From: a virus
Taxonomy: Duplodnaviria; Heunggongvirae; Uroviricota; Caudoviricetes
Length of the DNA: 5,582 nt
Strand: one strand, 5' to 3'
IMG/VR virus record: IMGVR_UViG_2695420430_000001
Part shown: piece after piece, positions 1,392 through 5,582 of the stretch
Layout: every line of letters starts with the position of its first letter
How positions within the stretch are numbered: the first letter of the stretch is position 1
The notes under the pieces: generated by a model
Told to the model about the DNA's origin: nothing
What the model saw: the letters and a program-made list of their open reading frames with translations, nothing else
Databases searched by the model: none
Translations under genes and position numbers: made by a program

Positions 1392-1787
1392 TCACATCTC
1401 GTATGTAATGGAATAAGTCAGATCTGCAGAACTCCATAACGCCATATCGTCATCACGACGATACTCATAGCCCTGCGTAACCATCGTGGTAATCAGTCCT
1501 GCCAGTGCCGGGATCGCGGTCATCGCCGGGTAAATCCGGCTTTCCATCCACTGATCGAGCTCTGAATCCGGTACCTGTGCCGGTAAAAACACCTCAATAT
1601 GCAGTGTGGCCCGCCAGGTATCTGCATCCAGCTCTTCACCGGTATACTCTGCATCCGTCAGATAAACCGCGATCGCAGGAAAATCCTCTTCGTCAAAAAC
1701 AACGGGGCGACCATCAAACAGCGTCGCCCCGTGTTCATGCTGCTCGAGTGCATCCAGCACTGCGGCACGAATGTCAGTGTGTTTCAT
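1392..1787 (-). CDS. U: Tail tube terminator protein gpU
   Basis: 131-aa ORF ([41 protein letters not shown]), the same length and motifs as lambda gpU by recollection. Its ATG (1787..1785) overlaps the Z stop (1786..1784) as ATGA, indicating translational coupling. Confidence 0.9.
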
Positions 1788-2373: not shown

Positions 2374-2727
2374 TTATCGTCGCCGGTTAACTGCGGGTGG
2401 TTGCCCACGGTTGAGCCAGAGATAACAGCTACCCCCGTCATCCGGAGAAACACGATCCACCCAGAATGTCTCACCATTAATGGTCAGCGTGTCACCACGC
2501 CGCACGGCACGAACCGTATCCGTCCGCACAAATAATGACGGGCTGCTTCCTTCAATACGGACCCCGCTACCGGCAAACCCCAGCGACTCCGGATCGTCAA
2601 AAACCCCCTGAACTTCGCTGCCACACTGTGCCCCCGAGGTGAACTGCGCACAGAGCCCCATCACTTCAACAATCGTTCTGTCCACCCCGGCAAGGGCAGC
2701 ATCAAAGGAATTCTCAAAATCACGCAT
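2374..2727 (-). CDS. FII: Head-tail joining (head completion) protein gpFII
   Basis: 117-aa ORF (..GVFDDPESLGFAGSGVRIEGSSPSLFVRTD..WVDRVSPDDGGSCYLWLNRGQPPAVNRRR) with the same length and conserved C-terminus as lambda gpFII by recollection. Its start ATG (2727..2725) lies 8 nt inside the 3' end of FI. Confidence 0.9.
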   Translation of the reverse strand: MRDFENSFDAALAGVDRTIVEVMGLCAQFTSGAQCGSEVQGVFDDPESLGFAGSGVRIEGSSPSLFVRTDTVRAVRRGDTLTINGETFWVDRVSPDDGGSCYLWLNRGQPPAVNRRR

Positions 2728-3088
2728 AAACGGCCATTCCGCTCCTGACCATGTCTTTTGCCACTGAGGGGGGCATCAGAATTACTCTGCCAGCATCAAC
2801 ATGCTCAACAGGCTCACCTGTTTCATCGTCAACACCGCACAGGTAAAAACACTTCAGAAGCCTGATACGTTCCAGAATACCAACGTCATCCTCACCGGTG
2901 TGCCTGCATGCCTGCTCATGAACGGTATCATCAACATCTGCGATTTCATTTTCCGAGGCGCAAACCTCCTCTTCCCACTCTGCCACACGCTGTGCGATAT
3001 CCGCAGCACTCCCCGACATATCCGCCTCGCGCCCCAGCAGACCAGCCAGTTCACGAAGACGTTTCTGATTTTCTTCTTTTGTTGCCAT
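2720..3088 (-). CDS. FI: DNA packaging / head assembly protein gpFI-like
   Basis: The track ORF 2720..3136 begins at a GTG inside the upstream hairpin. The first ATG with a good SD (AGGGAG, 6-nt spacer) is at 3088..3086, giving 122 aa starting MATKEENQKRLRELAGLLGREADMSG..; the helical N-terminus, acidic linker and position between E and FII match lambda FI. Sequence similarity to lambda FI is weak and judged from memory. Confidence 0.7.
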   Translation of the reverse strand: MATKEENQKRLRELAGLLGREADMSGSAADIAQRVAEWEEEVCASENEIADVDDTVHEQACRHTGEDDVGILERIRLLKCFYLCGVDDETGEPVEHVDAGRVILMPPSVAKDMVRSGMAVYA

Positions 3089-3103
3089 ATCCAGCTCCCT
3101 GTG

Positions 3104-3132
3104 AAAAAAACACGGGGGCATTTCGCCCCCGC
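3104..3132 (-). terminator. Intrinsic-terminator-like stem-loop plus U7 tract between E and FI
   Basis: Minus strand reads CGGGGGC GAAAT GCCCCCG TG TTTTTTT: a 7-bp G/C stem (3131-3125 pairing with 3119-3113), a 5-nt loop, then seven T residues at 3110-3104. It starts 8 nt after the E stop and ends 15 nt before the FI start. Confidence 0.65.
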
Positions 3133-3139
3133 TCACGGA

Positions 3140-4168
3140 TTATTTCACCTGTACCACCACAAACTCATCCGGATCCGGCAGCACCATCAGCGGCGCGGAC
3201 TGCGTCATGGTGAATTCACAGGACGGATCGCCCACGGTCAGCCAGTGTTTCGGGTAACGGGAAGAAGCCACCACTCCTTCAGACAACGCCTGTGCATCCT
3301 TAATGGCTCCATAGCAACGAATCCCCTCTGCTGCCGTATTCCCCAGCACCAGCGTGCCCTCCGGCAGATAACGTTTTTCGGTACCGTCCTCTGCCACATA
3401 AGACGTTTTCGCTACCACAATGGCCAGATCGCCGTAATACCCCTTGAAGGATACCACTGCGCCCAGATCTTTCACTGCCGTTTCGAGTTGTGAATTTGAG
3501 CCGCGACGGGTATCCATTTTTTCGCGGAAAAGCTTAAAGCCATTCAGCAGACGCCAGACGGTACCGTCCATAATGGCAATATTCACAAGACCACTGGCCT
3601 GATCACAGAAAAGGTCGATATCATATGTCGGGTCGAACGTGTCACGATCCTGTTTTGACCACTCCTTACCGCTACCTTGTATGATGTTATTCTTCGTCGA
3701 TCGGCCAAAATCGACTTCAATTTTCTCGAACTGGTCTCCTTCCATCGTATATTTGCCATACAGCACGGCATTCACCGCCTGCATTTCTTCCACCTGCACA
3801 ATAGCGTGCTCTTCCTGTTTGAGGTTATCAGTGATGATACGCAGACGACGGTAGGCCGGGTCGTTCAGCTGAGCCGGATCTTCACCGGGAAGGCGCTCAA
3901 CCGCCTGCTGGTAATTAAATTCGTGTTTCGGCTTGACGTAGCCCGGACGCAACACGCGGGTTTCACCACCACGATGGCGCAGCACTTTTCCTTCAACGAT
4001 CGGGGAGACATAGGCCGCCACCGGCGTTTTTCCGGTAATTTTGTCCAGCATCACCTCTTCGGTGTGGAAATTCACCGTACGGCGGAAAAACAGCTCCAGA
4101 AATAGCGCACGGAATTTAACTTTTTGTTCGGTATAACCGAGTAACTGGCGGGTCGTAAACAATCCCAT
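3140..4168 (-). CDS. E: Major capsid protein gpE (lambda E family)
   Basis: 342-aa ORF with ATG at 4168..4166 and an AGGA SD; the translation shares long motifs with lambda gpE by recollection (..YVSPIV.G.V...GG....PGYVKPKHE..; ..AIVQVEEMQAVNAVLYGKYTM..; ..TRRGSNSQLETAVKDLG..; ..MTQSAPLMVLPDPDEFVVVQ..) and the same length. Confidence 0.95.
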   Translation of the reverse strand: MGLFTTRQLLGYTEQKVKFRALFLELFFRRTVNFHTEEVMLDKITGKTPVAAYVSPIVEGKVLRHRGGETRVLRPGYVKPKHEFNYQQAVERLPGEDPAQLNDPAYRRLRIITDNLKQEEHAIVQVEEMQAVNAVLYGKYTMEGDQFEKIEVDFGRSTKNNIIQGSGKEWSKQDRDTFDPTYDIDLFCDQASGLVNIAIMDGTVWRLLNGFKLFREKMDTRRGSNSQLETAVKDLGAVVSFKGYYGDLAIVVAKTSYVAEDGTEKRYLPEGTLVLGNTAAEGIRCYGAIKDAQALSEGVVASSRYPKHWLTVGDPSCEFTMTQSAPLMVLPDPDEFVVVQVK

Positions 4169-4196: not shown

Positions 4197-4218
4197 TCAG
4201 GCCACCATGGTGGCCTGA
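4197..4218. repeat. Perfect 22-bp palindrome TCAGGCCACCATGGTGGCCTGA in the D-E intergenic region
   Basis: Seen in sequence: the 22-mer equals its own reverse complement, centred on CCATGG. It lies 7 nt after the D stop and 28 nt before the E start. No U-tract follows on the transcribed strand. Confidence 0.8.
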
Positions 4219-4225
4219 TAACGTG

Positions 4226-4573
4226 TTACGGCAGAGCCGCGTGACTCAGGGCTGTGCCGGCAAAGGCATTTGCCTTTTTGTGTTCATCCACACTGTCAGG
4301 CCAGCGGATTGCCTCCGTCGCAAAGGTCCCCGACTTGTAATAGGTCAGCACCGTCTCTGTGCCTTCAAGCGGCAGTACCAGTATGCCAACCGCACTACCG
4401 GCTTTCTGTCCATCCCAGACCACCAGTTTCCCGGTGGCTTCATCCAGCATCAGGGGCGTCAGAGCCGGTGTTGCAGAAGAAATCCCGCTGCTGCCTGTGG
4501 CGGTATGAGCCGGATCACTACCAGCAAAAATACGTACTTCCGCACGCTGTTCAGTGATGGTTTTCGTCACCAT
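4226..4573 (-). CDS. D: Head decoration protein gpD family
   Basis: 115-aa ORF with ATG at 4573..4571 and a GAGG SD; shares motifs with lambda gpD by recollection (SDPAHTAT, TPLMLD, KLVxWDG, AVGIL, YKSGTF, AFAGTA). Located between C and E as in lambda. Confidence 0.85.
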   Translation of the reverse strand: MVTKTITEQRAEVRIFAGSDPAHTATGSSGISSATPALTPLMLDEATGKLVVWDGQKAGSAVGILVLPLEGTETVLTYYKSGTFATEAIRWPDSVDEHKKANAFAGTALSHAALP

Positions 4574-4609: not shown

Positions 4610-5212
4610 TCATGGCATGGCCATGAGCATTTTCACGTCCGCATCACCGTCTGCTGACGTCTGTGACACGCCACCCCGCACCGCTGCCGGTGAATGATTC
4701 GCCATGAAATGTTCAAACAGGGCGGTTGTGGATGCAGAGACCGGTTCGGCCTTACCTGATCCCGCAGCCAGCACAGCCCGGGCGTTCTCCACGGTCATTC
4801 CCGGGCAGGCCGCCAGTTTTTCAGCCTGCGCTTCTGCCCCTTTTGCCTCATCCAGGGCCATGATCTGATCACGAAGTGAGGGCCCGGCATCCGCCAGTGG
4901 TGCAGCCGCCAGGATCGGGCGGGCTTTTTCCACCGTCATCTCCGGCATCGCCGCCAGCGTTGCCGCCAGTTGTTCACGACCGTTCGCTTCTTCACACGCC
5001 ATAATGCGATCGGCTTCACTCTGCGCGGATGCCACCGGCTGCTGCGGTGCCGCCGCGGCCAGAATCGCCCGGGCCTGTTCAATGCTCATGCCCTGTTGTC
5101 CTGCCAGCATCGTGGCAAGCTGTTCACGTCCTTTCGCTTCCTGACACGTCAGGATCCCCATCACTCGCTGGTTCTCCTGCGCGGCAGCTTCCGTTGCAGT
5201 TAATTGCGGCAT
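4610..5212 (-). CDS. Candidate nested in-frame scaffold protein (Nu3-like) initiated inside C
   Basis: In-frame ATG at 5212..5210 (residue M116 of the track ORF) is preceded by AGAGGAGG with a 4-nt spacer, a strong SD for a site inside a coding region. It would yield a 200-aa product coextensive with the repeat-containing C-terminus of C. In lambda, Nu3 is made from an in-frame internal start in C (established knowledge); applying that here is inference. Confidence 0.4.
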   Translation of the reverse strand: MPQLTATEAAAQENQRVMGILTCQEAKGREQLATMLAGQQGMSIEQARAILAAAAPQQPVASAQSEADRIMACEEANGREQLAATLAAMPEMTVEKARPILAAAPLADAGPSLRDQIMALDEAKGAEAQAEKLAACPGMTVENARAVLAAGSGKAEPVSASTTALFEHFMANHSPAAVRGGVSQTSADGDADVKMLMAMP

Positions 5213-5582
5213 AGTGCCTCCTCTGACATTACTGTTCAGCGCCGTGGCCATCACACTGATGGCATCCGACGCATTGATTAATTCATCCGCCAGCCCGGCC
5301 TCAATGCCGGACTGACCTTCAAAAACGGCGGCCTCTGTTCCCGTGACCGCATCCACAGACAACCCGGTATACATCGCCACTTTTTCGGCAAACATCCGGT
5401 GCGCCGCATCAATCCGCTGCTGCATATCCTGGCGAACCTCTGCCGGCAACGCTTCAAACTGATTGCCATCCACCTTGTGCGCCCCGGCATAAATCAGCGT
5501 GATATCCACACCGGCCTGCGCCAGATGACCGGCATAGCTGACATGGCTCATCATCACGCCAATGGAGCCGATACGGGATGTC
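4610..5582 (-). CDS. C: Prohead protease / scaffold gpC-like (S49 SppA-like peptidase C-terminal part plus scaffold region); 5' end lies outside the window
   Basis: The reading frame is open from the window edge (5582) to TGA at 4612..4610, with no stop in the 8 codons upstream of the track start; the track start at 5557 is a GTG and not the true start. The N-terminal part in the window (..GSIGVMMSHVSYAGHLAQAGVDITLIYAGAHKVDGN..EAAVFEGQSGIEAGLADEL..) resembles the lambda C / SppA protease family by recollection. Confidence 0.85.
   Translation of the reverse strand, partial: TSRIGSIGVMMSHVSYAGHLAQAGVDITLIYAGAHKVDGNQFEALPAEVRQDMQQRIDAAHRMFAEKVAMYTGLSVDAVTGTEAAVFEGQSGIEAGLADELINASDAISVMATALNSNVRGGTMPQLTATEAAAQENQRVMGILTCQEAKGREQLATMLAGQQGMSIEQARAILAAAAPQQPVASAQSEADRIMACEEANGREQLAATLAAMPEMTVEKARPILAAAPLADAGPSLRDQIMALDEAKGAEAQAEKLAACPGMTVENARAVLAAGSGKAEPVSASTTALFEHFMANHSPAAVRGGVSQTSADGDADVKMLMAMP
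4742..5167 (-). repeat. Three tandem degenerate copies of a ~42-codon module within the scaffold region of C
   Basis: Protein copies: RVMGILTCQEAKGREQLATMLAGQQGMSIEQARAILAAAAP / RIMACEEANGREQLAATLAAMPEMTVEKARPILAAAPL / QIMALDEAKGAEAQAEKLAACPGMTVENARAVLAAGSG. Copies 1 and 2 are also similar at the DNA level (for example 5113-5150 versus 4958-5000, about 75% identity by eye). Confidence 0.7.

What the first reader, a model, noticed from the sequence alone, without database searches (positions are those of the whole stretch)
3104..3132. Rho-independent terminator-like hairpin immediately downstream of the major capsid gene
A 7-bp pure G/C stem with a GAAAT loop followed by TG and seven T residues on the transcribed strand lies in the 47-nt E-FI spacer. 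Within a late operon this could act as a partial terminator or 3' stabiliser that raises capsid mRNA relative to downstream genes, or as a readthrough point requiring antitermination. The FI ribosome-binding site (AGGGAG) lies just beyond the U-tract, so termination and FI initiation may be linked. The six-frame track ORF for FI starts at a GTG inside this hairpin, which is almost certainly an artefact.
Basis: seen in the sequence. Interest (0 to 1): 0.45.

Follow-up and report, generated by a model that had tools for sequence, protein, structure and literature searches.

The report
Terminator-like hairpin after capsid gene
A strong G/C stem-loop followed by seven U residues sits just after the major capsid gene of this E. 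coli lambda-like prophage; it is real and evolutionarily maintained, but it is an ordinary kind of element already annotated at the same spot in related phages, and its role is still untested.

Summary
On the minus strand, C3131-G3113 form 7 consecutive G/C pairs, or 8 pairs with G3132·U3112. The loop is GAAAT and a run of T7 follows at 3110-3104. The hairpin folds at -14.8 to -16.8 kcal/mol. A motif this strict is expected about 0.001 times per shuffled window.

Two details are wrong. The E-FI spacer is 51 nt, not 47. The GTG of the ORF lies 2 nt upstream of the stem, not inside it.

The window is the late operon of an E. coli lambdoid prophage with phage-21-type head genes and lambda-type tail genes. 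A hairpin lies at this position, 0-14 nt after the capsid stop codon, in about a dozen lineages of E-type capsid genes. Their stem sequences are unrelated, and the closest group shows one compensatory G-C to A-U change. The U tract, in contrast, ranges from strong to poor.

GenBank records of N15 and HK225 already annotate the syntenic hairpin as a rho-independent terminator. A 2020 paper calls such intra-late-operon terminators known but of unknown role.

The most likely reading is an intrinsic-terminator-type element that antiterminated polymerase reads through. Its net effect would be leaky termination and/or 3' protection of capsid mRNA. No transcript data could be reached. It is a new member of a known kind, of low interest.

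The parts
3140..4168 (-). Major capsid gene (lambda E / phage 21 gene 7 homologue), 342 aa, stop TAA at 3142-3140
   Evidence: ORF list. About 92-94% DNA identity to the phage 21 head operon. PGAP names it 'major capsid protein' in an E. coli prophage whose E-FI junction is identical to the window's.
3112..3132 (-). Hairpin: 7 G/C pairs (3131-3125 with 3119-3113) plus G3132·U3112; loop GAAAT (3124-3120)
   Evidence: Sequence; scan. dG -14.8 / -16.8 kcal/mol, with 0.0013 expected per shuffled window. All pairs are kept in 17 variants, with one compensatory change.
3104..3110 (-). U tract: seven T, starting 2 nt after the last G/C pair
   Evidence: Sequence. Most close relatives have C+T6 instead.
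3095..3100 (-). Ribosome-binding site of FI (AGGGAG), 6 nt before the ATG
   Evidence: Sequence. The phage 21 record annotates the RBS at the equivalent place.
2720..3088 (-). FI (DNA-packaging protein) gene, true start ATG 3088-3086, 122 aa
   Evidence: The PGAP gpFI start leaves a 51-nt spacer. Phage 21 ORF1 starts at the same ATG. Spacer-length variation breaks the frame of the upstream GTG/ATG.
4197..4218 (-). Companion hairpin in the shp(D)-E spacer: 22-nt perfect palindrome TCAGGCCACCATGGTGGCCTGA, beginning 7 nt after the shp stop codon, with a poor U tract
   Evidence: dG about -16 to -18 kcal/mol. Together with the E-FI hairpin it brackets the capsid gene.

Best explanation
The element is an intrinsic (factor-independent) terminator-type RNA element inside the late operon of a lambdoid prophage.

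**Shown**
- The transcript of the minus strand can form a very stable 8-pair (7 G/C pairs plus a G·U) hairpin 7-8 nt after the capsid stop codon, followed by seven U.
- That is the full anatomy that makes unmodified E. coli RNA polymerase release its transcript, about 7-9 nt past the stem (around 3105-3103).
- The hairpin at this position is maintained by selection across lambdoid phages.

**Inferred**
- During lytic growth the operon is transcribed by polymerase modified by the phage's Q-type antiterminator. That polymerase passes the site, because FI, FII and all tail genes lie downstream and no promoter was found.
- The element therefore cannot be an efficient stop. Its effect is most likely quantitative. 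A minority of polymerases terminate, and transcripts that end or are trimmed back to the hairpin are protected from 3' exonucleases. Both effects favour capsid mRNA over the downstream message.
- The same element would stop any polymerase that enters the head genes without Q, for example in the lysogen.
- In this window the U tract is the best of its lineage (T7 versus C+T6). This copy is therefore predicted to be a stronger terminator than the phage 21 copy.
For: - **Anatomy and rarity:**
- **Stability:**. The core hairpin persists in every folding context tried.
- **Position:** this is one of only two spacers longer than 40 nt in the window, and both hold strong hairpins.
- **Whole-prophage view:** in an E. 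coli prophage whose E-FI junction is identical, the only strong sense-strand terminator-like sites (at least 6 G/C pairs) between terminase and J are the two that flank the capsid gene. Other such sites lie after the antiterminator gene, the tRNAs, the lysozyme gene, J and lom.
- **Conservation:** about a dozen different hairpin sequences lie 0-14 nt after the stop codon of E-type capsid genes sharing 53-100% protein identity.
- **Local rank:** the hairpin is the single most stable local structure in 5 of 15 representative loci, and has 1-4 equals in 7 more.
- **Covariation in the close group:** 100% of hairpin cells are paired, with one compensatory G-C to A-U change, three G·U substitutions and a one-base shortening of both arms.
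- **Prior annotation:** the syntenic hairpin is annotated as a rho-independent terminator in N15 and HK225.
- **Read-through requirement:** an antitermination gene lies upstream and essential genes downstream on the same strand, and no promoter-like site was found in the window.
- **Literature:** the same two roles (partial termination, or stopping non-antiterminated transcription) are proposed for intra-late-operon terminators of P22-like phages (PMC8022706). T7's terminator directly after its capsid gene does lower downstream transcript abundance (PMC6938266).
Against: - No transcript 3'-end, RNA-seq or half-life data for this element or its homologues could be reached, so termination and stabilisation are both untested.
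- The U tract is poor in many lineages that keep the hairpin, such as lambda (TGTTTCTCTG), N15/HK225 (CTTTCTGG), Gifsy-1 and Serratia. Termination may therefore not be the selected property.
- Lambda's strongest terminator-like site lies upstream of E. A 'reduce downstream expression' logic cannot explain that.
- From my own memory, not checked here: Sampson et al. 1988 (PNAS 85:5439) attributed differences in lambda late-gene expression mainly to translation initiation rather than to mRNA level.
- Covariation within the close group is too sparse to be significant alone (58 of 500 shuffles reach it).
Confidence: 0.6

Rival explanations
1. It is a pure RNA 3'-end protector or processing barrier. 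The hairpin is selected only because it blocks 3'-to-5' exonucleases after the long late transcript is cut downstream, lengthening the life of the capsid message. The U run in this copy would be incidental and termination negligible.
For: The hairpin is nearly universal across lineages, while the U tract varies from 7 of 8 to 2-4 of 8 T. A second stable hairpin with no usable U tract follows the shp gene. Antiterminated polymerase would ignore a terminator anyway (established knowledge of Q proteins).
Against: Several independent lineages do pair the hairpin with a good U run: this window, Providencia, E. whittamii-type, L120, and the lambda D-E site. Tails are pyrimidine-rich nearly everywhere. 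No decay data exist.
Confidence: 0.25
2. It is a lysogen-state insulator. Its selected role is to stop polymerases that start spuriously, or read in, without the Q modification, keeping tail genes silent in the prophage. It would have no effect on lytic gene dosage.
For: It has a full terminator anatomy that only unmodified polymerase would obey. The phage L genome paper proposes this role for such sites. Similar sites punctuate the whole late region of an E. coli prophage with the same junction.
Against: Weak U tracts in many lineages would insulate poorly. Why insulation would be placed specifically on both sides of the capsid gene is unexplained.
Confidence: 0.1
3. It is a translational coupling device. 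Bases just after the E stop codon (UCCGUGA) pair with UCAC-GGA around the FI ribosome-binding site, enclosing the hairpin. Ribosomes finishing E would open the outer helix and license FI translation.
For: The minimum-energy fold of the bare spacer shows this outer helix. Analogous pairings of post-stop pyrimidines with the FI Shine-Dalgarno appear in the N15, HK225 and Gifsy-1 spacer folds.
Against: When the first FI codons are included, the helix disappears in the window: the U run pairs instead with the A-rich start of FI. The mean unpaired probability of the ribosome-binding site is 0.3-0.7 across lineages. The outer helix has no compensatory change and several broken cells. It is absent in lambda, Providencia, Serratia and E. 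whittamii types. Short pyrimidine matches to a purine-rich site are expected by chance.
Confidence: 0.04
4. It is a chance inverted repeat or a DNA-level site (protein-binding palindrome, recombination linker) with no RNA function.
For: None specific. The sequence is invariant in most close relatives, which DNA-level conservation could also explain.
Against: About 0.001 are expected by chance. The sequence turns over while the structure is kept across lineages, with a compensatory pair, and that pattern points to RNA structure rather than a sequence-specific DNA site. The tail is strand-asymmetric, with a U run only on the sense strand.
Confidence: 0.02

Closest known systems
Stem-loop between N15 gene 8 (major capsid) and gene 9 (FI), annotated 'putative rho-indep. 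transcription terminator' (NC_001901 7053-7073); and the 'rho-independent terminator' of HK225 (NC_019717 7009-7028)
   Same: It holds the same position, between the E-type capsid gene and FI, 9-12 nt after the stop codon. It has a 7-bp G/C-rich stem and a 4-5-nt loop, lies on the same strand, and is followed by a pyrimidine-rich tail and then the FI ribosome-binding site.
   Different: The stem sequence is unrelated (GTGGCCC/GGGCCAC versus CGGGGGC/GCCCCCG). Their tail is weak (CTTTCTGG), whereas this window has seven consecutive T. Neither has been tested experimentally as far as I could find.
Unannotated hairpins flanking gene E of phage lambda (E-FI spacer ATGGCCC-TTCG-GGGCCAT; D-E spacer GGCCGC-CTGT-GCGGC + T7)
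   Same: The layout is the same: the two long spacers on either side of the capsid gene each hold a stable hairpin.
   Different: U-tract strength is swapped. In lambda the canonical terminator is upstream of E and the E-FI tail is weak. In this phage-21-type head module the E-FI site has the strong U run and the shp-E site does not.
Intra-late-operon terminators of P22-like phages (phage L, at the end of the procapsid gene module)
   Same: It is a predicted rho-independent terminator inside a single-promoter, antiterminated late operon, just after the capsid-building genes. Proposed roles are partial termination or blocking non-antiterminated transcription (PMC8022706).
   Different: The capsid gene family and genome are different. 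The paper itself says the roles are unknown.
T7 terminator T-phi, immediately after major capsid gene 10
   Same: It is a terminator placed directly after the major capsid gene that is incompletely efficient. Transcript abundance drops downstream of it (PMC6938266; T7's use of inefficient terminators to balance expression is noted in PMC9163698).
   Different: It acts on T7 RNA polymerase rather than host polymerase. No antitermination factor is involved, and there is no homology. It is a functional analogue only.

Membership tests
Canonical intrinsic (Rho-independent) terminator of E. coli RNA polymerase | G/C-rich stem of about 5-14 bp with a short loop (3-8 nt) | tested here: met
   There are 7 G/C pairs plus a G·U pair and a 5-nt loop; dG is -14.8 to -16.8 kcal/mol.
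Canonical intrinsic (Rho-independent) terminator of E. coli RNA polymerase | U-rich tract immediately (0-2 nt) after the stem | tested here: met
   G/UG and then 7 consecutive U (3110-3104); 7 of the first 8 tail bases are T.
Canonical intrinsic (Rho-independent) terminator of E. coli RNA polymerase | Lies on the transcribed strand in a non-coding spacer downstream of a stop codon | tested here: met
   It lies in the 51-nt E-FI spacer on the minus (coding) strand, with the stem starting 7-8 nt after TAA. The upstream in-frame GTG/ATG extension of FI is not conserved as coding.
Canonical intrinsic (Rho-independent) terminator of E. coli RNA polymerase | Produces released transcripts with 3' ends in the U tract, in vitro or in vivo | not testable with these tools
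   No Term-seq, RNA-seq or in vitro data were accessible. The EHEC Term-seq paper has no supplementary files held.
Syntenic capsid-FI hairpin of lambdoid phages (as annotated in N15 and HK225) | Stable hairpin within about 15 nt after the stop codon of an E-type major capsid gene, before FI | tested here: met
   The position is shared with lambda, N15, phi80/HK225, Gifsy-1 and the Providencia, Serratia, L108, L117, L120 and E. whittamii types. It is weak or absent in L107 and L116.
Syntenic capsid-FI hairpin of lambdoid phages (as annotated in N15 and HK225) | Structure kept through sequence change (compensatory substitutions) | tested here: met
   One G-C to A-U double change, three G·U single changes, a one-base shortening of both arms (L025) and no broken hairpin pair in 17 variants. 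The stem sequences differ entirely between lineages. The shuffle control within the close group is not significant on its own (58/500).
Syntenic capsid-FI hairpin of lambdoid phages (as annotated in N15 and HK225) | Sequence homology of the hairpin itself to the annotated N15/HK225 elements | tested here: not met
   The stems are unrelated in sequence, and BLAST similarity to lambda, N15 and phi80 stops inside the E gene. Membership is positional and structural, not by descent of the sequence.
Any curated RNA family (Rfam 15) | Match to a covariance model | tested here: not met
   The only hit in the window is a chance snoRNA match elsewhere (E = 0.4, below gathering score); nothing matches at 3089-3139.
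Terminator subject to Q-type processive antitermination | Located downstream of a late promoter and antiterminator gene, in one co-directional operon with essential genes beyond it | tested here: met
   An E. coli prophage with an identical E-FI junction has an 'antitermination protein' gene 14 kb upstream, and lysis, head and tail genes all lie on one strand. No promoter-like site was found in the window.
Terminator subject to Q-type processive antitermination | Read-through depends on the antiterminator | not testable with these tools
   This needs transcription assays with and without Q.

The most novel reading that the evidence does not exclude
The two hairpins that bracket the capsid gene, after shp/D and after E, would be a conserved 'punctuation' system of lambdoid late operons. 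It would carve out a discrete, long-lived capsid mRNA segment. Terminator strength (the U tract) would be free to move between the two sites: strong upstream of E in lambda, strong downstream of E here. Because the stem starts only 7-8 nt after the stop codon, inside the footprint of a terminating ribosome, the E-FI site might stop only transcripts that are not being translated or not Q-modified. That would make it a quality gate rather than a dosage device.
Probability: 0.12. Interest if true: 0.45.

Novelty: new member of a known kind. Interest (0 to 1): 0.2.

Why it matters
Homologues of this junction are present in 1562 of 5426 complete E. coli genomes, so the element is widespread. Why single-promoter, antiterminated late operons keep terminator-like hairpins around the capsid gene is an acknowledged loose end in lambdoid phage biology (PMC8022706). 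The natural variants found here would allow a clean comparative test of termination versus mRNA stabilisation: T7 versus C+T6 tails on an identical stem, and a lambda layout with the strong site on the other side of E. The expected answer, though, is a modest quantitative effect of a familiar mechanism, not a new principle.

Tried and rejected
- **Rfam:** a scan of the whole window at permissive E-value matched no family at the site.
- **Sequestering of the FI ribosome-binding site by an outer helix (translational coupling):** the bare spacer predicts it, with look-alikes in N15, HK225 and Gifsy-1. It vanishes when the FI codons are added, the ribosome-binding site stays 30-70% unpaired, and the helix has no covariation. 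I dropped it to a low-probability rival.
- **A d'Aubenton-Carafa-style terminator score, formula recalled from memory:** it ranks this copy positive (+11.6) and the phage 21 copy slightly negative (-5). It mis-scored one of my own calibrators (rrnB T1) and depends on where the stem/tail boundary is drawn. I do not rely on it beyond 'T7 is better than C+T6'.
- **Within-group covariation statistics:** there is too little variation for significance (58/500 shuffles). The argument rests on structure kept across lineages with unrelated sequences.
- **Literature on 3' ends or mRNA steps at lambda E-FI:** Term-seq, ribosome-profiling, gpFI and late-operon queries found nothing relevant. Liu et al. 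2013, Sampson et al. 1988 and the Casjens & Hendrix review were not held. The EHEC Term-seq paper has no supplementary tables held.
- **RNase III site:** rejected by inspection because the 8-9-bp stem is too short.
- **Bidirectional terminator:** rejected because the plus-strand tail is not T-rich.
- **FI starting at the upstream GTG (3136) or the in-frame ATG (3121):** rejected because of annotation in relatives and frame-breaking spacer-length variation.

Full report
**What is there.**
- The window is the late (virion) operon of a lambdoid prophage, read on the minus strand.
- Gene order is protease/scaffold (4610-5557), decoration protein shp/D (4226-4573), major capsid E (3140-4168), FI (ATG 3088 to 2720), FII, Z, U, V and G.
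- The head genes are of the phage 21 type (about 92-94% DNA identity). The tail genes are about 90% identical to lambda.
- A 251-nt stretch across the E-FI junction is 100% identical in many E. coli chromosomes. Homologues occur in 1562 of 5426 complete E. coli genomes.

- The minus strand reads TAA(3142-3140) TCCGTGA G CGGGGGC GAAAT GCCCCCG T G TTTTTTT CAC AGGGAG CTGGAT ATG(3088).
- The stem has seven uninterrupted G/C pairs (3131-3125 with 3119-3113), and G3132·U3112 can extend it.
- The loop is GAAAT, and seven T follow at 3110-3104.
- The hairpin folds at -14.8 kcal/mol (7 bp) or -16.8 (with the G·U pair).
- The 51-nt spacer folds at -22.1 kcal/mol, z = -2.5.
- A motif this strict was found 0.0013 times per window in 3000 dinucleotide-preserving shuffles, against once in the real sequence.
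- It is the best terminator-like site in the consensus scan.

**Two details in the finding are off.**
- The spacer is 51 nt, not 47. Both PGAP and the phage 21 record start FI at this ATG.
- The GTG that opens the mechanical ORF (3136-3134) lies 2 nt upstream of the stem, not inside it.
It and an in-frame ATG in the loop (3121-3119) are put out of frame in close relatives, whose spacers are 49-52 nt long.

**Comparison with relatives.** I collected about 190 loci encoding E-type capsid proteins from IMG/VR, GTDB genomes and GenBank phages. I then read the 100 nt after each stop codon.
- In the phage-21-type group (17 distinct spacer variants), every hairpin pair is kept.
  - One pair shows a compensatory G-C to A-U change (L091/L092, E. 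coli and Shigella).
  - Three pairs show G·U substitutions.
  - One variant has lost one base from each arm.
  - This is too little variation to be significant alone (58 of 500 shuffles reach it).
- Across lineages the picture is clear. Hairpins with unrelated stem sequences sit 0-14 nt after the stop codon in many types:
  - lambda (ATGGCCC/GGGCCAT)
  - N15 and phi80/HK225 (GTGGCCC/GGGCCAC, with different loops)
  - Gifsy-1 (AAAGGCCTGA/TCAGGCCTTT)
  - Providencia (CGGCGGG/CCCGCCG)
  - Serratia (AGGGGC/GCCCCT)
  - three further IMG/VR types
  - an E. whittamii type (GAGCC/GGCTC + T7)
- Only two sampled lineages (L107, L116) lack a convincing hairpin.
- In 5 of 15 representative loci this hairpin is the single most stable 32-nt fold of the locus. 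In 7 more it has one to four equals.
- The U tract is not conserved in quality. It is 7 of 8 T here, C+T6 in phage 21 and most close relatives, good in the Providencia, E. whittamii and L120 types, and poor in lambda, N15/HK225, Gifsy-1 and Serratia.

**Context in the operon.**
- The window has only two spacers longer than 40 nt, shp-E (57 nt) and E-FI (51 nt). Both hold strong hairpins.
- The shp-E one is a 22-nt perfect palindrome with no useful U run.
- Lambda has the same layout with the strengths swapped. Its D-E spacer carries a textbook terminator (GGCCGC-CTGT-GCGGC followed by T7), and its E-FI tail is weak.
- In an E. coli prophage whose E-FI junction (251 nt) is identical to the window's, an antitermination protein gene lies 14 kb upstream. 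Lysis, head and tail genes all follow on one strand.
- Between terminase and J in that prophage, the only strong sense-strand terminator-like sites are the two flanking the capsid gene. Others follow the antiterminator gene, the tRNAs, the lysozyme gene, J and lom.
- No sigma-70-like promoter was found in the window.

**How it most likely works.**
- Shown: full intrinsic-terminator anatomy on the transcribed strand, and selection for a hairpin at this place.
- Inferred from established knowledge of lambdoid late transcription: polymerase modified by the Q antiterminator reads through. FI, FII and all tail genes depend on passing the site.
- The element can therefore only act quantitatively. 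It may terminate a fraction of polymerases, and/or act as a 3' structure that protects the upstream capsid message from exonucleases. It may also stop polymerases that lack the modification.
- The genome paper on phage L lists exactly these possibilities for intra-late-operon terminators and states that their roles are unknown (PMC8022706).
- The best experimentally grounded analogue is T7's T-phi. It lies directly after the capsid gene, and transcript abundance drops beyond it (PMC6938266).
- Two observations argue against 'termination to lower downstream genes' as the conserved function. The U tract varies widely, and lambda has a strong site upstream of E.
- Both observations favour the hairpin itself, meaning RNA stability or processing, as the selected feature.
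- From memory, not verified here: Sampson et al. 1988 attributed lambda late-gene expression differences mainly to translation initiation.
- I put 0.6 on the composite reading (terminator-type element, read through under antitermination, with a modest effect on capsid mRNA). I put 0.25 on a pure stabiliser, 0.1 on a lysogen-state insulator only, and little on translational coupling or chance.

**What did not hold up.**
- The suggestion that termination and FI initiation are linked has no robust support.
- An outer helix pairing the bases after the stop codon with the FI ribosome-binding site appears in the fold of the bare spacer. Look-alikes occur in N15, HK225 and Gifsy-1.
- That helix disappears when the first FI codons are included, shows no covariation, and is absent from other lineages.
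- Rfam has no family at the site.

**Is it new?**
- It is not new as a kind. The GenBank records of N15 (stem_loop 7053-7073, 'putative rho-indep. transcription terminator') and HK225 ('rho-independent terminator', 7009-7028) annotate the syntenic hairpin.
- The phage 21 head-operon record, the lambda records and the RefSeq E. coli annotation do not mark it. This copy is therefore an unannotated new member of a known kind.
- No experimental test of any of these hairpins was found in the held literature.

**Verdict.** The element is real, selected and ordinary. Interest is 0.2.

Noticed in passing
window 4197-4218 (minus strand), shp(D)-E spacer: A perfect 22-nt palindrome, TCAGGCCACCATGGTGGCCTGA, begins 7 nt after the shp stop codon (dG about -16 to -18 kcal/mol) and has a poor U tract. 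Lambda's D-E spacer instead has a canonical terminator (GGCCGC-CTGT-GCGGC + T7). The capsid gene is thus bracketed by hairpins in both lineages, with the strong U run on opposite sides.
   Followed up: partly
window 1702-1733 (minus strand), inside gene U: A very stable hairpin, ACGGGGCGAC-loop-GTCGCCCCGT (dG -20.8 kcal/mol), is followed by TGTTTTTGAC. It lies within the coding sequence of the tail-terminator protein U (codons for [13 protein letters not shown]). The same stem and T-rich tail are present in lambda gene U. Whether it is a coding coincidence or an internal attenuator is not known.
   Followed up: partly
window 3119-3136 (minus strand): An in-frame GTG (3136-3134) and an in-frame ATG in the hairpin loop (3121-3119) lie upstream of the FI start. 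Spacer lengths of 49-52 nt in close relatives break these frames, so FI starts at ATG 3088.
   Followed up: yes
L205 (E. coli FDAARGOS_536 prophage) 8524, 10379, 14498, 34919, 35594: Other strong sense-strand terminator-like hairpins punctuate the late region: just after the antitermination gene (probably the Q-controlled terminator), after the tRNA genes, after the lysozyme gene, after J and after lom.
   Followed up: no
window 3104-3110 versus relatives (alignment A1): The U tract is a small indel hotspot: T7 here, T6 in L017, C+T6 in phage 21 and most relatives, and C+T7 in L066. This gives natural variants of predicted terminator strength on an identical stem.
   Followed up: partly
window 5285-5316 (minus strand), inside the protease/scaffold gene: The most stable 32-nt local fold of the window (GUCAGUCCGGC...GCCGGGCUGGC, dG -22.3 kcal/mol) lies within coding sequence and has no U tract.
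   Followed up: no
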